From NCBI GenBank assembly GCA_000004985.1, contig GG738902.1: a stretch of DNA of 64,000 nucleotides; one strand, written 5' to 3'. The position numbers were made by a program, and so were the translations under genes. Below are positions 14,675 to 29,528 of the stretch, one piece after another. The notes below the pieces were generated by a model. That model searched no databases and was not told where the DNA came from. It saw only the letters and a list, made by a program, of their open reading frames with translations. Position 1 is the first letter of the stretch. Each line of letters begins with the position of its first letter. The DNA is from Naegleria gruberi (lineage: Eukaryota).

Positions 14675-17600
14675 TTATTGGCTTGTCATTTTGACCACTT
14701 CAGATGTTGGAATTGTCAATGCTTCCATATTGTCGTCGTGATATATTTCAGTAGCATTTTGTACTGGTGGTAAAATAATAGTGCTGTATGGAGGAGGTAA
14801 TATTCCATTACTTACTGGCATATTTCCATATGCTGTAGTGTTGACAGAAGGAGGTTCATAAGAATAATATGCAGTTCTTGGTGGAGATCTTGGAGGACTC
14901 GAAGTAAATGCTGATAATGGTTGAGGATATGGAGTATAGATTGGAGGTGGAGTATTGAGTATTGGTACATCAAACATTTCATACTCATTTCTTCTCTTGT
15001 TGAGAGGAGTATTGGCTTCCTTAGTTGGGAAGAAGACTTCATAGTCAGCAAAGGTATGTGTAGTCTTATTGGTTGAACTAGTTGGACTTCTGTGAACAGA
15101 TTGTTGTTGAGGAGTAGTATAGATTGACTGCTGTTTCTTATTGAGTGGTTTACCACTGGTTGATTTGATTGATTTAGAACTACTACTTGGAGGAGCTTTG
15201 ATGGCACACTTCTTTCTCTTTGGTGCTTGAATGCAAGCAATGAAAAGGAATAAAAAGAACCAAATAGCAAAACCAAGAAGGAATAACCCAAAGGTTGCTG
15301 CAATACATAGATATCTTGCAAGCTCAAATTTGTTTGGAACATAGAGAACCTTTGATCCTTTGCATTGTAAATTACTCCAACCAACAGCACTCAAACCACC
15401 CTCAATGTTTGCCACTTCGAGTGGAGTGGTTGGTTTGTTGGAATTTACGAAAAACTCAGTAATAGGATTAGATGTTGAATGTACATTCAAACACTTGTAA
15501 GTATTTCCAAGTGTGATCATCTCAAAATCAGTATACACTGAATCAGTATAAGTACCAGATTGGACAACACAACAAGCATAGGCAGAATTACTTAATAACA
15601 ATTCGACGTTTGTGTCTTTCATCAAGCTTACTGTTTCAAAGATGGTGATACCTACAACAGATCCAAATCCTCCCAACCATAACACTGCAAGTAGTAAAAG
15701 CATTGTTCCCACTATAAACACAGAGCAATACCTCCTTTTTCTTTCATCCTGACTTTTAACACATCCTCTGCAAACTCTGATGGCAAGAAACATGGGAAGA
15801 GTTGCGAACAGAGCAGGAATGAATGATTCCCACTCCTTTTCATTTTCAATGTTAATCTTCTTTTTCCTGATTGTTTGAATACAGAATACGCAAGTGAAAA
15901 AGAGAGAATACAAGAGAACAATACCAACAATACATCCAGCAGTAATATACGACTCAAAGAAGTAATTTTCAAGGTACACGTTTTCCCCAGATTCTACATT
16001 TTCAGCAGTTCCTCTGAACGAAGCACTTGCAAACGTTTGATCTGTTGGGAATCTTATTAAAATCTTTGAGTATGTTGCAAGTTTGGAAGCATCAACATCC
16101 AAGATGAATTTGAGGGCTTTCAAGGTTGTTTGATGTTGCTTGTAGACATAGTCGTTTCTTGTGGGAGTAATTGTTTCCAACTTGTTTGGATATAACGAAA
16201 TTGCGTATACTGTTGGAGTCGGAACTGAGGTAAATTGTTGACTGAATAATTCAATCAAATACTGTCCAGTGTCTTTGGCATCACTGTAATCCACTTCAAC
16301 AATAGTTCCAGGGTTTACAACAAATTTGGTCAAGTAAGAAGATGATGAGATTGAAGCCTTTGATGGGGTTGTTGTCATTAAATAACTGAACTTGGCTTGA
16401 GAGGAAAAAGAGGAAGAATCGCATGATTGGGGAGAATATGTTTCCAGAGGATGTATGAGCATATAGATAGCCTTATCTTGTAGTTTCAAATATGGAGTGT
16501 TCACAAAAGATGTACCTGAACTAGTCTCAAAGATTATTCCATTTTCGTATCCAATAATGTTGACCTTGTAATTGGTTTGAGATGAAATATCTAGCTTAAT
16601 ATTATAGTTATTAGAGTCTACAGGTTTTCCTACCCCAAGATAAATATTGTACTTCCTACCTGATAACATTAAATTTTGACTGTCCATCAACATTGTAATT
16701 TGGAAATTATTAGAAACAGTATTTACAACCATTCGTTGCGTTACATCTTCTGTTGGAGAAGCATAATATGGTAATTGAATTGTATTATATCCAGGTGAGG
16801 AGAGAGAGAAGGCAAGTTGAGGGGAAGATATGGATTGTACAACATAGTTAACTGTTGTATTTGAAATTGTAAAGGCAGGATCTAATTGAAGGTTAAATTT
16901 CCAAACTCCATTAAGGGATGGCTGAAGCCATGTCGAAATACCAATAGTGTTTGTGAATTCATTCAGACAGTTAACAGTGACAGTCTTAGAAAAAGCAAGA
17001 ACAAATCTCTGAAGAGTTCCTTGTGCGGCTGTTAATTTCAATGTTGGAGGTGTTAAATTGAATTGACCCTGACTTATTACCGGTTGTAAATTCTGAACAG
17101 TTACAAAAGCAAGAAGGTAACTGTCCTCTGTTGGGTTATAGGAGATATAGTAAGGGTAGGATCCTGTTGAAGATTGAGGCAAAGCTTGGCTGTAAACACC
17201 ATCAAGGGGCAGGGAGGGTGGATTTAAGTACATGTTTGGAATTGAAAAGGACAATACTGCAGAACAAGTATCACAATTGTTCTCTACAATCACTATCAAT
17301 GATCCAATAGGAATTTGCTTAAATGAGATTATGTGTGTATAAGTGTTTGAAGCAGAAATGACTTGGTGGGCTTTTGAAACATCGAGAGTGATAGGCATTT
17401 CACCACTTTGGATAATGAATAAATAGTATGGACGAGTGGAGAGTGCAGACGTAGAAATTTCTATATCTTGTGGTGTATTATCCCGAGTGGAGTAGCTTAT
17501 AATTTTTAAGGCATTTACCTCACCATTAACAATTGGTTTAGGAATTGTAAAAGATTGATCAATAGCCATACTCTTAATGCCTTAGTAGTTGAGTTAATTA

Positions 17601-19143
17601 TTTTAACAATTGGCTTATACTTACTCTTTTTCAACATTGTAATAGTACCTGTGGTGTTAGAAACTTTACTATTCGTGATCTTGAAAGTTAGAGATGTTGC
17701 TCCATTCAGTTTAGAATTTAACAATGTTGATGGAATAATAAAGGAAGTGGTTGTGACAGAGATTTGAGGAATCGTTATTGTCTGTAATGTGGCGGAAGAT
17801 GATACAACAATCGTTCCGTTGAAGGTGCTGTTAAAACTAATGTAGGTCTGAATGAAAGCAATCGCTGTGGTAGTGACATACGAAGCAATGATAACTCTCT
17901 TTGAATTATCAACCTTGAATGCTAGTGCTTTTTCATAAACTGAATAATAGGTATTGGGAGAATAAGGATCGACATTGACTGTCGAGTTGCTATTTGTTGT
18001 GGTATTATTATTACTTGCAGTATTGTTGGATGTCTGGGTTGAATTTGTGATTACATTACTAGTAGAATTGACAGACGAATTGGGTATGCCAGTATTATTT
18101 GTTTTAGACAAGTATGTGAGCGAGATTGAGGAGGATTGAACTCTTGAGCTTATCAAAGGATCATAATATTTTCCATTCATACGAGTTGCGTAAGTAACAG
18201 TGGAAGTGGTATTTGTTGTGATATTGCTGTCGTTTCTCCATTTATACATGATGTAAACTTGAATTGATTGACTGGCTTGTAATGTCACATAACTGACATA
18301 AAGACTGGCTGTGTTTGAGCTGCTTATTGGTATGAGAGTATATGATTTGATGGCTGTTTGTACATTTGTTGAATGATTAACCCTAACAAGCTTTACAATT
18401 GAAATATCGAGGTTTGAAATGCTTAGAGATTCGAACTTGATATCCAGATATACGTCTGTTATTGTATCTATACCAGAGTTTTTAATGGTCACAACATTGG
18501 TTGAATTTCTATTTGATTGATTTGATGCAATGACTACCGTTGATGGTTTTGAAGTGATACCCAAATCCACAACAGGTGTTGTTGAAGGAACATAACACAG
18601 ATACAAATACATGGATTGAATTAACAATTCCTCTGGTGTCAATCTCTTCAATGTCAGCTTGTTAGAATAATCTTTCAAATACACATACGAAAGACCAGTA
18701 ACATCCACACTTGATGCTTTCGAAATTCCCAAATTACAAGCATCCTTCGTACCACAATAAACACTGGGATTCAGATAGGGATATTTCATTATATTCAAAT
18801 CATTAATAAGCATTGAATAATTTGCTGAAAAACTCGATGAGGAGGAACATGAAGTAAATCGATAATTAATTTTCGATCCAACCATTCCCTGATAAATCAA
18901 TACTTTCCTACTCGACCCACCAGTATATGAAAATGTTCCATTCAATGAGGTACTTTTCCAACTCTTGTTATAATCATTGCAAACGTAGGAATAATAATTA
19001 TTGGGTGTAAAGAAAACTTCAACATTCTCGCATGTGGGTGAAACATTCTGACCGAAGACTGTAATGTTATTATGTATTACTAGGAAGAATAATACAAGGA
19101 AGACTATTTGATAAGCATTTAAAACTTTTGCAATATTTATCAT
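14675..19143 (-). CDS. Large S/T/N-rich, mucin-like transmembrane surface glycoprotein. It is read as two overlapping ORFs (17515..19143 and 14675..17569) that probably form one gene.
   Basis: The upstream ORF has a signal peptide (MINIAKVLNAYQIVFLVLFFLVIHN) and dense N-x-S/T sites. The downstream ORF continues the same composition. It ends with several TM helices and a proline-rich cytoplasmic tail carrying PPxY-like motifs (PPPYSTI, PPIYTPYP). The junction at 17515..17569 is unresolved; it may be a 54-nt intron or a frameshift. Confidence 0.5.
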
Positions 19144-19654
19144 GTTGATGTTGTTGGTAATAGTTGTATTTAAGAGTTAGGTATTTATGATGATTGTTGT
19201 TTTTATAATCCGATAATGATTATAGCATCATTAAGAGACTATGTTTTTCAGCTATTCTTTTAATGTTGTTATTGTGCTTATTTAAAAATTCTAGTGGAGG
19301 GATAATTCATTTCCATTTGAGAAAAAAATCCCAACTCAGAATTTGCATCTCCTATTCTCTCTGTAGTAAAAAATGGCGCCTTTAAAAAAACATCAACAAG
19401 CCTATCAAAGCACATTAAGGTCAATGTTGATAAAAAAACTGTATTGTGTAAAGGGAACTCGAGTTTGTCGTTGAGGATGTATAGTTGAATACAATGACAA
19501 TATATTCGGATCCCTTTGAAAGGGAATACGTTTCATGTAACATGTTGTGATGCCTTTTCATGAACAAAAGATATTAAGCTGGTCTGGTTAATACATCTAT
19601 TAGTGTTATTCTCAATTAAAATGATGGGATTGGATTAAAAAATGGTCAGTTTTA

Positions 19655-19897
19655 TTATAAACCAGGGTAACTATCAACAAACTCAACAGTGAAATCAGGA
19701 TAATCCTCAACGATTTGAATCTTGAAATCTGGGTAGCTGTCAACTTCTTCCCAAAGACCAACACTGATTGGATAACTATCAACCATTTGAACTCTGAGAT
19801 CAGGATAACCGTCAACTACTTGTACCTTATAATCAGGGTAGCTATCAACAAATTCAATCTTTCCAAAGATTTTAGCAAGTTCTGATTTAGAAACCAT
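19655..19897 (-). CDS. Small 80-aa protein made of six tandem 11-residue repeats (VDSYPDFKVQ.).
   Basis: ATG in strong A-rich context. The protein is MVSKSELAKIFGKI followed by EFVDSYPDYKV / QVVDGYPDLRV / QMVDSYPISVGLWEE / VDSYPDFKI / QIVEDYPDFTV / EFVDSYPGL. The period is 11 with alternating hydrophobic and polar residues, which looks like beta-strand repeats. Confidence 0.45.
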   Translation of the reverse strand: MVSKSELAKIFGKIEFVDSYPDYKVQVVDGYPDLRVQMVDSYPISVGLWEEVDSYPDFKIQIVEDYPDFTVEFVDSYPGL

Positions 19898-20337
19898 TTT
19901 TTTTTGTTTTGTGTAATGAATAAACGTGTGCGGTTTTATCCACTTGCAGAATGCATGTGTGTTAGTTGCAGTGAGGAATAATCGGAACTAATAATGTTTG
20001 ACCTTAATTCTCTGTTCACTGAATGTTACATGCATTTGGAGACAAAACTGGATCTAACCAAAGACCAGGATGAGGGTGGGATTTTCTTTGTAATCCTCTC
20101 TCTTCTCAGTTAAACAATAAGAACACCCTCAGAGAAAATTCAATTTCTATCATGGGTCAACTACAAGTATAGGATACTTCTGACAAACATAATTCAGTTG
20201 ACCTTCACTGGAAAGTTCATACCTTGATCCAAAACCAGTCCTCAAAAGTTCATTATTTTTATTATTAAAAAAAATTGCCAAGTCCTTTGTTGGAGGTTTG
20301 AAATTCATCGTCGTCGTCTTTGAGAAGGATAATAATA

Positions 20338-23300
20338 ATGGCCAGTAGCAGTAATAATAATTGTATTCTCACCACATCGGATGATGGTGACTCTATCTAT
20401 TTTGTCTCATCACGGGATAAGCAACATACACTCAAGCAATTACAAACGAGTACGGAACATTTTCAAAAGAAGGAATACAAAGTAGCCATTGAAATATTGG
20501 AGAAGTGTGTTCAGATACCCTCGGATACATTGATCACTGTTTCAGGGTGTGATTTCAATGATGGAGAATGTATCAAGGGAATAGCTGAACAAGCTGATAA
20601 ACAAATTGTTGAATTAATTGGAAAGATGTTTATCACTAAAGGACTTTGCTATTTTAATTCGACAATTGTTGCTGAGAGTGATGAAAAGAAGGATCTGTAT
20701 TTTACTAAAGCACTGCAAGATTTTGCTGCAGTTGCCAGACACTACAAACTGTACAAACAATTGTATTATTATGATAATCAACAATCACTCTTGCAAGATA
20801 TCGATGGCTTGTATGTATTTGTTACAACTATGAAGTCGTACTTCCTTGAGGGAAGATGTCTTCAACAATTGAGGGGATATCAAGTGGACGGAATTTCATC
20901 TCTGGAGAAGGCAGTCATTGCATTTAGTGAGGCAATTCAAATGGCCGAGTATTTGAAGAGTAATTCATCAGGGGTGGCCAGTGAGAAGGTTTGTCTCTCT
21001 GCTCTCGAACAATTGCCACAATATTATCTCAATAGAGCCCTCTCTCATAATGATATCAATTCTTACAGACCAGCAGAGGCCGATTTTACGAGTTACATCT
21101 CACTGATTGGTAATACTAACGATAAAGAAAGAAAATCTACATTATTCATGATTGCTTATCATAATAGAGGAATTTCACTTTCCTACATGCAAAAGTACGT
21201 GGAGGCAATTGAGGATTTCACAAAATCAATTGAACATTACCAGGAAATTCCACAAAATAGTCCAGACAAGAAACAACAATTTGATAGCTTTTTAGAAACT
21301 CACTCCAAAAGGGCTAAAGCAATTCATAGATTCATTGTGGATCATGTACACGACTGCAGAGATAATAACGACAAAGCAATGATGGACAAGATTTTGAAAC
21401 TCAAAACTCTTGCATGTGAAGATTTTGAATTTGTAAGCAAACACAAGCCTAATAGTGTTTATAATAATCATTTCAACACGAGCCAAATTTTGAATATGGT
21501 GGCAACCATTCTCTCCCCAATATTACCAAAGGAAGTTCAATTTGAGCTTTACTCTCAATCTATTCCACACTTGAGAGAATGCATCAAACAGGGAAATAAC
21601 TACAAGACAAGTTTGGATCTTGCTAAAGCATTGTCAAAAACTGGAACTGGTCAAAATGAAGAAATTCTCGATTTGTATAATAGAGCTGTGAAATTATTGG
21701 ATGTTGAATCAAGCAAAAAAGTTTCTGGAGAGCAGAAGGCAAATATATTCTTTGAGAGAGGAGTTTTGTACAACAAAATGGAAAGAGTAGAACAAGCCAT
21801 TATGGACTTTACTACTTCTATTGATTTACATCAACAGTTTTTGGAAGCTTACTTTAATAGAGCCATTCTTTATTATACTAAAAGTAGAAATACAATTTTA
21901 GCTATTAAGGATTTGGAAAAAGTTATTGAAATCGATCCTAAAGATACCACTGCCTTGATAGAACTGGCAGTTTTATTGGCCTCTAATGGTCAAGTTGAGG
22001 AAGGTACCAAGAGATTGAATCAAACCTTAGAATGTGACCCAAACAATGAAACAGCTCACAAATATTTGAAAATTCTCCAAGAAAATGAATCTCCTCTTCC
22101 CTCCAATGATATTTTCGAGATTAGAGAAGATCATGTCGAGGAAGTGCCTTTCACTATTCGTCAAGTTCAAAGACCCACTTCTGACAACTTTGGATTCAAA
22201 CTCTTCAAAAAGAAGACTAAGGAGGTTGATCCTGAAGAACAACTGAAGCAGTCAGTACCTCCACCAAAAACAAGATCTACCAATTCAATGTTTTTGGACA
22301 ACTCTCTTCCACCAATAACCAGTTCCATTCTAGGAGCTGGAACTAGAGCAGATTTTGATCTTCCACCTCACATTGTAAATTTGGATACAGATCTTGTCTG
22401 GTTACGTCCTTCACAAATAACTGGTGTAACCAAGCCAGCACTTTTTGTCGATGGTTCCAATTATAAGGATGTCATTCAAGGTTCTCTTGGTAATTGTTGG
22501 ATGCTTAGTGCAATGGCCATTGTTGCTTCTCATGATTTTGTAATGAAAAAGGTTGTTGTTGAATCAAAAACAAACTCTGCAATTGGAAAATACACATTTT
22601 GCCTTTTCAAGGAGGGACGGAATAAGGAAATTACTATTGATGACTTGATTCCTTGTGATGTAACTACAAATTCGTATGTGTTCTCCAGATCAGCAGATCC
22701 CAACGAGTTGTGGGTGCCACTGTTGGAGAAGGCTTACGCAGCTCTCTATGGAAATTATTTCTCCTTGAAGGGAGGTCATTTGAAAGATGCTCTCGTTGAT
22801 CTTACTGGTGGTATTTCATTTTCATATGATATTGACCCAAAAAAGATTGAGGAAGTGTGGCAATACCTTTCGTGCCTACCAAAGCAAAACAGCTCAAGTA
22901 GCTCCTTCAAATTGATGGGTGCAAGATCCGAGACATCAGCTTCTGACTATACTGGTATTATCAATTTCCATGCCTATGCTATTTTGGATGCTATAGAGTT
23001 CCCTCCACATTTAACCAATAGTCAGAGAGTAAGATTAATCAAAATGAAAAATCCTTGGGCTAACGGAATTGAATGGAAGGGAGAGTGGTCAGATTATTGC
23101 CCTCGCTGGAGTCCAGAGCTTAGAAAATATGTAGGAAATGACTTTAATTCTCAAGATGGTATTTTTTACATGTCATTGGAATATTTTGTTGTCCAATGGA
23201 ATATGATTGAAGGTGTGGAAATTTTCGTAAATGGAAAATGGAATGAATTCTTAGCGACTGGAAGATTTGATTCAAATATTAGAAGCGATAACAATTGGAT

Positions 23301-26987: not shown

Positions 26988-29528
26988 TTAGCAAGATTTG
27001 TTGACTAGTTCAGCAAGAAGTTTTTTCATGTCCTCTCTATTAAAAACATCCAAAGTTACAATTTGAATTTGATTTCTCTTTTCATCATTCGAAACTTGAT
27101 TTAAAAATTGTTTGATAATGTACTTGGTATTCAATTCTAGATATTCATCAGTGACTTGAATTGATTGCTCAGGTTCTTTGAGGTCATCTTCGGTGAGTGG
27201 AATAATTCTCTCAGGAGGGTTGTTGAATTTGAGACAAGAATCAATCATTTCTTGAGTGATTCCTTCCTCAGATTGTTCATGCGTAAGAGATTCCTTAATT
27301 TGCTTTCGTTGACTTTCTAATTGTTGCTCCAATGTAGATAAATTAATGGAAACACTCACACAACGATTGTCTTGGAATCTTCTGGTCTTTCCTGAAGAGG
27401 CTTCAATAGAAACCTCAATGAAACTGCTTTGTCTTGAATGAGATTCATCCAATGATGATGAGCTTTCGTCAGTGACATTTCTTGTTGTTGCTGGCTTAAT
27501 GACTTGATCGGAAAGTTTTGGTTCTTCAAAGGTTTCAACCTTTTCCATACAAACAACTGGAGAATCCACAGAATCTTCGTCTCTCAAATGAGATGGAATT
27601 GGAGATTTCTTTTCTGGAGTGGCAGGAGGTGGAATTTGTGGGCTAACTTGAATAGTTTCCTTCTTTTCTGGCATGGTTGTTGGGTCAATTTTAGATGTTC
27701 TCTTTTGCATAATTTCCTCTGGGAATGGATCAAGACGAACGAAATTTTCTGGAGTTTCAGATAGTAAATTAGAAAGATAGGCATCTGACAAGTCGCAGTA
27801 AACTAATTTTCTCTTGAGTGATTCCTTCTTTGTAAAGACGAGAATGAATGGAACATGTTCCAATTCTGGCATGTTAACAGTTCTGTTGAAAAATTCCAAC
27901 GAATCAATTAATTGATTTTTCAATGTCAACAAATGGTTGTGTTGTAAACTTTGATGACGTGATAGGAAATTAGATGAAGCACTGTCGATGAGTGGCTTGA
28001 ATTTTGGTGATTTCAAAGTCTTTTTCTTGGCTCTTTCCTTTTCCAATAGATCAGTATGTTTCACATTGACACTACTACCAGTTGGTGATGTCAAGGTGGA
28101 AATGAGCTTGTCATTGGATGAGGCATCACTACCACTTTCATAAACTGGTTTTTCAAGAGTCAATACCTTATCTACAAGTGGAGAACCAGGAGTTCTCGAA
28201 TCAGTTATTGAAATTGTGGAGCCGTACAATCCCAAAATATCATCAACTGAATACTGATTGTAACAAGTGAGTGAAACAAAGTACAAAATGGCAACTCCCT
28301 GAGTTTTGATTGGTTTCTTACTGGAAGTAGCATTTTGTTCACTTGAATTGGCGGATGTATTGCTGTCAGTTGTGGTATTGAGTGGAGTAGATGAAGCATT
28401 TACAGATGATGAGCTAGGTGCTGTATTTTCAGATTTCTTCTTCTTCTTCTCTTCCTTTTCCTTATCCTTTCCAGAGGAGGTTGTTGAACTTGTCAATGGT
28501 TGAGATTCTTCATAGAGCTTGGAGAGCAAAATCTTCTTCCACTTTTTTCTATCTGATCTAACACCTGCACTGTCAATCATGTGAAGTGAACGAATGATTG
28601 GTTTTGGTTTTTGAGGGAGTGCATTCTTTTCAGAGTCCTTACTCTTTTTAGAGGAGCTTGTTGATGTGGTTGCATTCTCAGTGGTAGATGTGCTCTTTCT
28701 CTCTGTAATGATTTTAATTTCACTCTCATAGAAACCTCGAGTCATATTCGAAGCTAACAAGTATTCAGTTTCAGATTTCAATTCTGTATCAGAAAATCCC
28801 TTTCTAGCTCTTCTCAATCTTTCTGCTATTTGATTACAATGAGTAATGACATAATTGAAATGTTCGAAATGTTGCCATTGTGGTTGTTTTGGAACTGTAT
28901 TCACATTTCCATTTTTATCCAACACATTTCCTGAAATAATCGATCCCACTTGAGTATTTCCAAACAAGTACAATAATTCTGGTGAAATTTTGTTATAATA
29001 CAAGATGGTGTAAATTTTGTGTAAAATTGTCTCAGTTGCCCACAACATTGAAATTTGTTGCATCATTCCTGCATCACTCCATAACAATTCTGGCTTAACA
29101 ATTGCTTGTTGCAGTAAACACCGAGAAGCATCTCCCTGTTCTCCACCATTCTCATTCTCACCTGCCCCTGCCTCATTCGAGCACTGTTCCACGATTGAAA
29201 TTTTTACAATTTTCAACAATTTTTCATCAATTAAATTTTTTGATGATGGAAATCGATAATCAATTTCGTTGAAAATTTTCTTCTTGACACAAATAATGAA
29301 CAATAACCATGAGAACATGCTGCTGAGTAATTCTTCGTGGAATTTTAGTGAATTTTTGGACATGCTGCCACCCAATAGGAGATTGGACATTTTGCAGAAG
29401 GATGTCTTTCCCGAATTGCTTACACCCATAAGGAGAAGGTGATGGAGTTGTTGTTGTTGTTGCTGTTGTTGGAGATTATAGTCGAAGGGTTGATCTTCGT
29501 CTCCGTGCCGACTCATTTGTTGTCCCAT
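26988..29528 (-). CDS. Divergent heterotrimeric G-protein alpha-subunit-like protein of 846 aa, with a myristoylation-type N-terminus and large low-complexity insertions.
   Basis: MGQQMS has Gly2 followed by Ser6. The P-loop LLLMGVSNSGKTS matches LLLLGAGESGKST. HMIDSAGVRSDRKKWKKI matches FDVGGQRSERKKWIHCF. GVAILYFVSLTCYNQ matches VTAIIFCVALSDYD. PFILVFTKKES matches IILFLNKKDL. IQIVTLDVFNRE matches the TCAT region. Confidence 0.7.
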   Translation of the reverse strand: MGQQMSRHGDEDQPFDYNLQQQQQQQQLHHLLLMGVSNSGKTSFCKMSNLLLGGSMSKNSLKFHEELLSSMFSWLLFIICVKKKIFNEIDYRFPSSKNLIDEKLLKIVKISIVEQCSNEAGAGENENGGEQGDASRCLLQQAIVKPELLWSDAGMMQQISMLWATETILHKIYTILYYNKISPELLYLFGNTQVGSIISGNVLDKNGNVNTVPKQPQWQHFEHFNYVITHCNQIAERLRRARKGFSDTELKSETEYLLASNMTRGFYESEIKIITERKSTSTTENATTSTSSSKKSKDSEKNALPQKPKPIIRSLHMIDSAGVRSDRKKWKKILLSKLYEESQPLTSSTTSSGKDKEKEEKKKKKSENTAPSSSSVNASSTPLNTTTDSNTSANSSEQNATSSKKPIKTQGVAILYFVSLTCYNQYSVDDILGLYGSTISITDSRTPGSPLVDKVLTLEKPVYESGSDASSNDKLISTLTSPTGSSVNVKHTDLLEKERAKKKTLKSPKFKPLIDSASSNFLSRHQSLQHNHLLTLKNQLIDSLEFFNRTVNMPELEHVPFILVFTKKESLKRKLVYCDLSDAYLSNLLSETPENFVRLDPFPEEIMQKRTSKIDPTTMPEKKETIQVSPQIPPPATPEKKSPIPSHLRDEDSVDSPVVCMEKVETFEEPKLSDQVIKPATTRNVTDESSSSLDESHSRQSSFIEVSIEASSGKTRRFQDNRCVSVSINLSTLEQQLESQRKQIKESLTHEQSEEGITQEMIDSCLKFNNPPERIIPLTEDDLKEPEQSIQVTDEYLELNTKYIIKQFLNQVSNDEKRNQIQIVTLDVFNREDMKKLLAELVNKSC

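What the first reader, a model, noticed from the sequence alone, without database searches (positions are those of the whole stretch)
19655..19897. 80-aa protein built from six 11-residue VDSYPDFKVQ repeats
This compact gene has an excellent start context. Almost all of the protein is a period-11 repeat with an invariant D-[SGD]-Y-P-[DIG] turn and alternating hydrophobic residues such as F/V-K/R-V-Q. That pattern suggests a stack of beta-hairpins, or a small beta-solenoid. I cannot assign it to a known repeat family. It sits head-to-head about 440 bp from the calpain gene and directly upstream of the large surface glycoprotein gene.
Basis: seen in the sequence. Interest (0 to 1): 0.55.

Follow-up and report, generated by a model that had tools for sequence, protein, structure and literature searches.

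The report
Bacterial-type knotted mini-protein gene in Naegleria
The 80-codon repeat gene is real and belongs to a known, mostly bacterial family (Pfam PF19647/DUF6150) whose solved member has the most complex protein knot known (7_1); this copy sits unannotated in the genome of the amoeba Naegleria gruberi, most likely after transfer from bacteria.

Summary

The window is Naegleria gruberi: the neighbouring calpain is 100% identical to an NCBI N. gruberi protein. The 80-aa protein is absent from the protein collection, so it appears to be unannotated. At least 280 bacterial species encode relatives. The syntenic spacer in N. lovaniensis lacks the gene. Codon usage and start context are host-like.

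Best reading: a domesticated, leaderless copy of bacterial origin that encodes a hyperstable knotted protein. The biochemical function of the whole family is unknown. Novelty: new member of a known kind, in an unusual host.

The parts
19655..19897 (-). Complete CDS (80 aa plus TAA stop) of a leaderless PF19647/DUF6150 '7(1) septoil knot' domain protein: MVSKSELAKIFGKIEFVDSYPDYKVQVVDGYPDLRVQMVDSYPISVGLWEEVDSYPDFKIQIVEDYPDFTVEFVDSYPGL
19865..19897 (-). N-terminal 11 residues (MVSKSELAKIF). They are hydrophilic, contain a short predicted helix (residues 4-7) and carry no signal peptide. They align with the linker just before the domain in bacterial homologs.
   Evidence: Alignment A1. DSSP on the models. 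Leaderless bacterial forms start at the same point, e.g. L016 MSKPDVSKIFGKI.
19832..19864 (-). Unit 1: β1 plus turn motif (GKIEFVDSYPD, residues 12-22)
   Evidence: Strand E12-16 in the models. G12 and D22 are invariant in the family alignment.
19799..19831 (-). Unit 2: β2 plus turn motif (YKVQVVDGYPD, residues 23-33)
   Evidence: Strand E23-27. D33 is invariant in A3.
19760..19798 (-). Unit 3: β3 plus a degenerate turn motif (LRVQMVDSYPI, residues 34-44) plus the 2-residue insertion S45-V46. Together these give the single 13-residue spacing.
   Evidence: Strand E34-39. YP spacing. This is the long β3-β4 loop, and it aligns with the NSSSFCEE loop of Q9PR55.
19727..19759 (-). Unit 4: G-x-W element plus β4 plus turn motif (GLWEEVDSYPD, residues 47-57)
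   Evidence: G47, W49 and P56 are invariant across 121 family members. Strand E48-51.
19694..19726 (-). Unit 5: β5 plus turn motif (FKIQIVEDYPD, residues 58-68)
   Evidence: Strand E58-62. D68 is invariant.
19658..19693 (-). Unit 6: β6 plus C-terminal cap motif (FTVEFVDSYPG-L, residues 69-80). The protein ends 1 residue after the cap motif.
   Evidence: Strand E69-73. V74 and P78 are invariant in both family alignments and G79 in A1 (90% or more in A3). 244 of 267 family members end within 4 residues of the final [FYW]PG.
19898..19912 (-). Start context acaaaacaaaaaaaaATGg: a run of A immediately upstream of the ATG
   Evidence: Sequence. The same A-run context appears at many large ORFs of the window.
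19651..19656 (-). AATAAA hexamer overlapping the stop codon (…GGTTTATAATAAAAC…), a possible polyadenylation signal. This is inferred only.
   Evidence: Sequence. An AATAAA lies within 60 nt after the stop in 8 of the 19 other ORFs examined.

Best explanation
Window 19655..19897 (-) is an unannotated, intact gene of Naegleria gruberi. It encodes a leaderless 80-aa member of the PF19647 (DUF6150, '7(1) septoil knot domain') family. The 'repeats' are six β-strands, each followed by a tight [DE]-x-Y-P-D turn; this is the family's S-F-P-D motif with Tyr in place of Phe. In the solved homolog Q9PR55 these units wind into a pseudo-five-fold mini-barrel whose backbone is a 7_1 torus knot, with the aromatic residue of every turn pointing outward. 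The gene most likely entered the Naegleria lineage from a bacterium. It has since taken on host codon usage and a host-type start context, and it lacks the signal peptide that most bacterial members carry, so the product should stay in the cytosol. No biochemical function is known for any member of the family. My working mechanism, which is inferred and not shown, is that it acts as a non-enzymatic, hyperstable module resistant to unfoldases and proteases, and that its ring of exposed aromatic and acidic turns serves as a multivalent binding surface. The extreme C-terminal position of the domain probably reflects the need to thread the chain end when the knot forms.
For: Family membership is supported as follows.
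- phmmer finds 13 homologs at E 7e-28 to 5e-9 with 43-68% identity, and all carry precomputed PF19647.5.
- A profile search finds 4025 clusters at E<=1e-5; one of them is named '7(1) septoil knot domain-' by UniRef.
- The profile finds 1564 representatives in the 50%-identity library.
- PDB 8iwa (Q9PR55) matches at E 2.3e-6 over residues 14-71, aligned to chain residues 27-86. That range covers the published knotted core, residues 27-83 (PMC9278004).

Fold:
- AF2 with 14 sequences gives pLDDT 95.1, with 2 of 5 models confident.
- AF2 with 121 sequences gives pLDDT 87-94 in all five models.
- Both predictions have six strands.
- The paper describes six β-strands, SFPD in every loop and pseudo-five-fold symmetry (PMC10840475).

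The repeats are old. Each Naegleria unit is most similar to the same-position unit of the bacterial homologs: diagonal values 0.53-0.73 against off-diagonal 0.31-0.59.

Host and integration:
- The adjacent calpain is 100% identical over 1113 aa to an NCBI 'predicted protein [Naegleria gruberi]' on a 305,921-bp contig.
- Other genes in the window are eukaryotic: G-alpha, ERG4/ERG24 and TPT.

Unannotated status: the exact sequence is not in the 15-billion-protein collection, and no homolog above 68% identity was found.

Bacterial origin:
- 280 confirmed loci were found among bacterial species representatives, including the Pseudomonas fluorescens group, Verrucomicrobiota, Planctomycetota, Leptospira and Photorhabdus.
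- None of the named hits is eukaryotic.
- The syntenic glycoprotein-calpain spacer of N. lovaniensis has no homolog.

Domestication and selection:
- GC is 35.8%, GC3 is 25.9% and the CAI-like score is 0.74. Host genes in the window score 0.66-0.75; bacterial homologs have a median of 0.41 and median GC of 50%.
- The start context is the A-run typical of window genes.
- All 10 family-invariant residues are retained.
- In DNA of about 33% GC, an 80-codon frame stays open by chance with probability of roughly 0.002 (my own calculation).

Leaderless bacterial forms of 78-80 aa exist: L016, L024, L049, L056 and L071.

C-terminal constraint: 244 of 267 members end within 4 residues after the last [FYW]PG.

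Stability and ClpXP resistance of the family's solved member are documented in PMC10840475.
Against: - No transcript or peptide evidence could be examined, and the gene is absent from the existing annotation.
- The local Pfam copy (PF19647.4) gives no hit for this protein. It also barely detects accepted members.
- The knot type of the model could not be computed because coordinates are not exposed. A homolog, P73136, is predicted to be 5_1 rather than 7_1 (PMC9278004).
- The donor cannot be named. The NJ grouping with Pseudomonas rests on about 75 aligned, repetitive residues.
- Low-GC bacterial homologs exist (L081 at 26% GC, L071 at 28%). Host-like composition therefore does not prove long residence.
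- Function is unknown for the whole family. No neighbouring gene is conserved across the 80 bacterial loci.
Confidence: 0.85

Rival explanations
1. The ORF is a non-functional relic of a bacterial DNA insertion. It happens to remain open but is neither transcribed nor translated.
For: It is not in the N. gruberi protein annotation. No expression data were available. No ortholog is present at the syntenic site of N. lovaniensis. The third turn motif is degenerate: SYPI instead of S[FY]PD.
Against: The reading frame is intact from the domain start to the family-typical C-terminal end. All 10 family-invariant residues are present. Codon usage and GC3 cannot be told apart from host genes, and the A-run start context is host-typical. 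A neutral sequence that had drifted to host composition would be expected to have acquired stops: about 7% of random codons at 33% GC are stops, by my own calculation.
Confidence: 0.1
2. It is a novel period-11 β-hairpin-stack or β-solenoid repeat protein with no known family.
For: The period-11 repeat is real. The local Pfam and NCBIfam scans give no significant hit.
Against: Homology to PF19647 proteins is highly significant, as is homology to PDB 8iwa. The model's only structural neighbour in the PDB is 8iwa, and that is a knotted six-stranded barrel, not a solenoid (PMC10840475).
Confidence: 0.02
3. The ORF is bacterial contamination or a chimeric assembly, not part of the Naegleria genome.
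For: All of the nearest relatives that carry an organism name are bacterial.
Against: The ORF lies 440 bp from one eukaryotic gene and 511 bp from another, inside a 64-kb stretch of eukaryotic genes. Its GC, GC3 and codon usage are host-like, not like the closest (Pseudomonas) homologs. No bacterial flanking genes are present.
Confidence: 0.02
4. It is an ancient, vertically inherited eukaryotic gene that most eukaryotes, including N. lovaniensis, have lost. On this reading it was not horizontally acquired.
For: Composition is fully host-like. The transfer direction cannot be proven from an 80-aa repeat protein.
Against: No eukaryote-labelled protein appears among the 13 closest hits or the 120 best profile hits. 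The gene is absent from the syntenic N. lovaniensis spacer. It is 60-64% identical over all 80 residues to its closest homologs in several bacterial phyla and sits inside their diversity in a distance tree.
Confidence: 0.05

Closest known systems
Q9PR55 / UU089.1 of Ureaplasma (PDB 8iwa, 8iwb, 8iwc, 8jrm, 8w68), the experimentally verified 7_1-knotted protein (PMC10840475; predicted in PMC9278004)
   Same: Both are homologous by sequence (E 2.3e-6, about 30-34% identity). Both have six β-strands joined by five aromatic-Pro-Asp turns. The model superposes on the crystal structure at 2.1-2.3 Å over 64-66 residues. Both are small: 80 aa here against 89 aa. The alignment spans the published knotted core.
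   Different: Tyr replaces Phe in every turn (S-Y-P-D against S-F-P-D). The window protein carries an extra C-terminal DSYPGL cap that Q9PR55 lacks; Q9PR55 ends 3 residues after the aligned region. Its β3-β4 loop is 2 residues shorter. The host is a eukaryote rather than a mollicute. The knot type of the Naegleria protein was not computed.
Bacterial PF19647 / DUF6150 ('7(1) septoil knot domain-containing') proteins, e.g. those of the Pseudomonas fluorescens group (L005-L012), Verrucomicrobiales and Planctomycetota
   Same: Identity to the closest homologs is 60-64% over all 80 residues, and up to 69% in the best BLAST segment. The unit order is the same, the G-x-W element is the same and the C-terminal [FY]PG end is the same. 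The Pseudomonas forms share the Tyr variant of the turn motif.
   Different: Most bacterial members have an N-terminal signal peptide and linker, with a median of 46 residues before the domain; the Naegleria protein has 11 hydrophilic residues and no signal peptide. In that respect it resembles only a minority of bacterial forms: L016, L024, L049, L056 and L071. Codon usage is eukaryote-host-like.
P73136 of Synechocystis, a homolog predicted by AlphaFold to form a 5_1 knot (PMC9278004)
   Same: It belongs to the same family as Q9PR55, with 48% identity to it according to the paper.
   Different: It has one winding fewer. I could not test which of the two topologies the Naegleria protein adopts. 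Its six strands align with the six strands of Q9PR55, which favours 7_1.

Membership tests
Pfam PF19647 (DUF6150 / 7(1) septoil knot domain) | Significant sequence similarity to accepted family members | tested here: met
   There are 13 hits at E 7e-28 to 5e-9, all with precomputed PF19647.5. The profile of the window protein plus its five nearest hits recovers 4025 clusters, and all 120 listed carry PF19647.5.
Pfam PF19647 (DUF6150 / 7(1) septoil knot domain) | Score above the Pfam gathering threshold with the family HMM | tested here: inconclusive
   The local copy holds PF19647.4, and it gives no hit for the window protein at E<=10. The same model also misses P0001, P0004, P0006 and P0010, and scores P0012 at only 16 bits against a cut-off of 27, although all of these carry PF19647.5 in the precomputed table. 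Version .5 could not be run here.
Pfam PF19647 (DUF6150 / 7(1) septoil knot domain) | S-[FY]-P-D-type tetrapeptide in each of the five loops between six β-strands (PMC10840475) | tested here: met
   The motifs are SYPD (19-22), GYPD (30-33), SYPI (41-44), SYPD (54-57) and DYPD (65-68). Each lies between predicted strands E12-16, 23-27, 34-39, 48-51, 58-62 and 69-73. The third motif is degenerate, as it is in Q9PR55.
Pfam PF19647 (DUF6150 / 7(1) septoil knot domain) | Three-dimensional fold of the solved member (8iwa) | tested here: met
Pfam PF19647 (DUF6150 / 7(1) septoil knot domain) | Backbone forms a 7_1 (or, in some members, 5_1) torus knot | not testable with these tools
Pfam PF19647 (DUF6150 / 7(1) septoil knot domain) | Domain sits at the extreme C-terminus and ends with [FYW]-P-G plus 1-4 residues (an empirical feature seen here) | tested here: met
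   244 of 267 members end within 4 residues after the motif. The window protein ends YPG-L-stop.
Pfam PF19647 (DUF6150 / 7(1) septoil knot domain) | N-terminal signal peptide (typical of the family, not defining) | tested here: not met
   The window protein starts MVSKSELAKIFGK with no hydrophobic stretch. No upstream in-frame ATG exists. Five of the 80 bacterial loci are likewise leaderless.

The most novel reading that the evidence does not exclude
Naegleria gruberi expresses a domesticated, cytosolic 7_1-knotted protein acquired from bacteria. Within everything sampled here, that would be the first eukaryotic member of the most complex known protein-knot family. It would show that such a knot folds in a eukaryotic cytosol without the secretion route most bacterial members use. 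It might also act as a proteasome- or unfoldase-resistant module.
Probability: 0.45. Interest if true: 0.5.

Novelty: new member of a known kind. Interest (0 to 1): 0.38.

Why it matters
The repeat that looked unassignable is the signature of the DUF6150/septoil-knot family, whose solved member is the smallest and most complex protein knot known. Three modest things follow from finding an intact, host-adapted and apparently unannotated copy in a free-living amoeba.
1. It corrects the N. gruberi gene catalogue, which missed this small gene.
2. It is a clean candidate for bacterium-to-protist gene transfer, with a defined insertion site relative to N. lovaniensis.
3. It offers a natural leaderless, eukaryote-encoded variant for people who study how deep knots fold and resist unfoldases.

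It does not reveal a new kind of protein or system, and the function of the family remains unknown.

Tried and rejected
- Pfam and NCBIfam scans of the protein gave only noise hits (BA_2335-like at E 1.3; GlySarMtase at E 0.15). The local PF19647.4 model is too weak for this subfamily.
- Tandem Repeats Finder found nothing at DNA level.
- The exact-sequence look-up of the 80-aa protein failed. Encoding-contig look-ups of three other window ORFs also failed. The organism was identified through a homology search with the calpain instead.
- The afdb50 fold library was unavailable.
- Model coordinates are not exposed, so the knot type could not be computed.
It worked with a 6-sequence domain alignment.
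- I searched for a conserved neighbour gene around 80 bacterial loci, hoping for a functional clue. No cluster occurs in more than 7 loci, so only lineage-level synteny is present.
- Mobile-element vehicles: there is no hit in GenBank phages, only 3 plasmid or chromid records and 5 IMG/VR contigs. This gives no support for a viral or plasmid route.
- An Rfam scan of 18500-21000 found no RNA family.
- No convincing flanking direct or inverted repeats mark an insertion.
- Domain fusions gave no functional lead: P0106 has two Tudor-like domains plus the knot domain, and P0158 is an 817-aa protein with a C-terminal knot domain.
- The opposite-strand ORF (19715..19885 +, 56 aa, TTG start) and the other-frame ORF (19612..19815 -, 67 aa) have nothing to recommend them.

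Full report
**Observation.** Window 19655..19897 on the minus strand is an 80-codon ORF that starts with ATG and ends with TAA. The sequence is MVSKSELAKIFGKIEFVDSYPDYKVQVVDGYPDLRVQMVDSYPISVGLWEEVDSYPDFKIQIVEDYPDFTVEFVDSYPGL. The dipeptide YP occurs at residues 20, 31, 42, 55, 66 and 77, giving spacings of 11, 11, 13, 11 and 11. Lag-11 self-identity is 20 positions; none of 20,000 shuffles reached that at any lag, and the maximum was 18. The repeat is therefore real. Tandem Repeats Finder sees nothing at DNA level. The only DNA repeat is a 78%-identical 80-nt pair that corresponds to the two three-unit halves of the protein. The ATG is the first one in frame, with a stop 31 codons upstream. 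The neighbours are as described: the calpain/TPR gene starts at 20338 (+), 440 bp away and divergent, and a 542-aa S/T/N-rich ORF lies 511 bp downstream on the same strand.

**Family.** The local Pfam and NCBIfam scans gave nothing useful. A phmmer search of the 5.8-billion-cluster collection gave 13 hits at E 7e-28 to 5e-9 with 43-68% identity, and every one carries a precomputed PF19647.5 domain. The local Pfam copy calls PF19647.4 'DUF6150' and is a weak model: it misses four of five accepted members. UniRef names a Pseudomonas member '7(1) septoil knot domain-…'. Against PDB sequences the protein matches 8iwa_A, 'Uncharacterized protein UU089.1', at E 2.3e-6, with residues 14-71 aligned to chain residues 27-86. 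That protein is Q9PR55 of Ureaplasma. AlphaFold predicted it to contain a 7_1 knot with a knotted core at residues 27-83 (PMC9278004), and crystallography and NMR confirmed this (PMC10840475). That paper describes six β-strands, a conserved SFPD tetrapeptide in all the loops between strands, and pseudo-five-fold symmetry with the Phe side chains pointing outward.

**The repeats are ancient.** Each Naegleria unit is most similar to the positionally equivalent unit of 78 bacterial homologs: diagonal values are 0.53-0.73 against 0.31-0.59 off the diagonal. The gene is therefore not a degenerate fragment of a larger repeat protein, and it did not arise by recent slippage.

**Host.** The adjacent 1113-aa calpain/TPR protein is 100% identical to an NCBI 'predicted protein [Naegleria gruberi]' on a 305,921-bp contig, and its N. 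lovaniensis ortholog is 48% identical. Other window genes are eukaryotic: G-alpha, ERG4/ERG24 and TPT. The window is about 33% GC throughout. The 80-aa protein is not in the collection as an exact sequence, and no hit above 68% identity exists. It therefore appears to be missing from the N. gruberi annotation.

**Origin.**
- A scan of one genome per bacterial or archaeal species found 280 confirmed loci. The best 80 are from the Pseudomonas fluorescens group, Verrucomicrobiota, Planctomycetota, Vulcanimicrobiota, Leptospira, Photorhabdus, Bacteroidota and others.
- A profile search of 1.84 billion representatives found 1564 members.
- None of the named hits is eukaryotic.
- In N. lovaniensis the orthologous glycoprotein and calpain genes are adjacent in the same arrangement. 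The spacer there is about 600 bp and has no homolog (tblastn E > 1), whereas the N. gruberi spacer is 1194 bp.
- A distance tree places the Naegleria sequence with the Pseudomonas sequences, which share the Tyr variant. About 75 repetitive residues cannot carry much weight, so I do not name a donor.
- Phage, plasmid and IMG/VR searches give no support for a particular vehicle.

**Is it a live gene?** No expression data could be consulted. The indirect evidence favours a functional gene.
- The frame is intact from the point where the family domain begins to the family-typical end.
- All ten residues that are invariant in 121 members are present.
- GC is 35.8%, GC3 is 25.9% and the codon-adaptation score is 0.74. 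These fall inside the range of the surrounding host genes (0.66-0.75) and far from the bacterial homologs, whose medians are 0.41 and 50% GC.
- The ATG is preceded by the run of A that many genes in this window have.
- An AATAAA overlaps the stop codon.

There is a caveat. A few bacterial homologs are themselves low in GC (26-28%), so host-like composition does not prove long residence.

**Leaderless form.** Most bacterial members have a signal peptide and linker, with a median of 46 residues before the domain (sequences). The Naegleria protein has 11 hydrophilic residues. A minority of bacterial genes are likewise 78-80 aa and leaderless: L016, L024, L049, L056 and L071. The donor may already have been of this type. 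I infer a cytosolic location in Naegleria.

**Mechanism and function.**
- Shown: homology, fold, and the role of the repeats as strand-plus-turn units.
- Established for the solved homolog: the 7_1 knot, resistance to 7.2 M urea, and resistance to ClpXP unfolding; the authors suggest the aromatic side chains act as 'linchpins' for strand register (PMC10840475).
- Observed here across the family: the domain is almost always at the extreme C-terminus, with 244 of 267 members ending within 4 residues after the last [FYW]PG. This holds even in fusion proteins (P0106, P0158). It fits a folding route in which the chain end must be threaded.
- Inferred, with low confidence: the protein is non-enzymatic and acts as a hyperstable module that presents a ring of aromatic and acidic turns for binding. 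There are no conserved polar residues apart from the turn Asp and Ser.

No conserved neighbour gene in bacteria gives a clue to function.

**Comparison and verdict.** The protein is a member of PF19647/DUF6150 by sequence, motif, fold and C-terminal architecture. The knot itself and the Pfam gathering score could not be tested properly here. It differs from typical members in three ways: it is eukaryote-encoded, it is leaderless, and it uses Tyr in all turns. Novelty: new member of a known kind in an unusual host. Interest is moderate to low (0.38). It amounts to a missed small gene and a tidy candidate for horizontal transfer of a structurally remarkable protein, and it is not a new kind of system.

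Noticed in passing
window 14675..17569 (-) and 17515..19143 (-): The 964-aa and 542-aa S/T/N-rich ORFs overlap at their ends. Together they correspond to a single 1377-aa gene call in N. lovaniensis (L001 5040..9274), so they are probably one large surface-protein gene with an intron or frame change. Neither ORF has a Pfam hit.
   Followed up: partly
L001 9404..10000 (N. lovaniensis) compared with window 19144..20337: Synteny of glycoprotein followed by calpain is conserved between the two Naegleria species. The spacer is about 600 bp in N. lovaniensis and lacks the knot gene, against 1194 bp in N. gruberi. A DDE_3 transposase gene lies about 1.6 kb beyond the calpain gene in N. lovaniensis.
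   Followed up: partly
Homologs P0003, P0008, P0011, P0012, P0158; loci L005, L009, L046, L063: Some bacterial homologs change the same position in all repeats at once. Ser becomes His in every turn (DHYPD / DHFPD), or one residue is inserted in every turn (DSHYPD in P0012). Likewise, Phe becomes Tyr in all six turns in Naegleria and in several Pseudomonas homologs. This concerted change across ancient repeats suggests the turns act together as a symmetric ring, possibly a ligand or metal site.
   Followed up: no
Family-wide (267 sequences in /data); window residues 77-80: The knot domain is nearly always at the extreme C-terminus. 189 of 267 members have exactly 2 residues after the final [FYW]PG, and 244 have 4 or fewer. 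This holds even for the 817-aa protein P0158 and the Tudor-like fusion P0106.
   Followed up: partly
window 19665-19744 and 19770-19849: An 80-nt direct repeat, 78% identical and 105 nt apart, corresponds to units 4-6 and units 1-3 of the protein. This implies a three-unit super-repeat inside the gene. I did not test whether it reflects the family's ancient internal duplication plus codon bias, or gene conversion.
   Followed up: no
P0014, P0016-P0018, P0023, P0044 (representative library): Tandem two-domain versions of the knot domain exist in bacteria. In P0023 and P0044 a well-conserved first copy is followed by a degenerate second copy. If both copies fold, these would be doubly knotted chains.
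   Followed up: no
window 26988..29528 (-): An 846-aa ORF has a G-protein alpha domain only in its C-terminal part (best stretch 537-584), so it carries an unusually long N-terminal extension.
   Followed up: no
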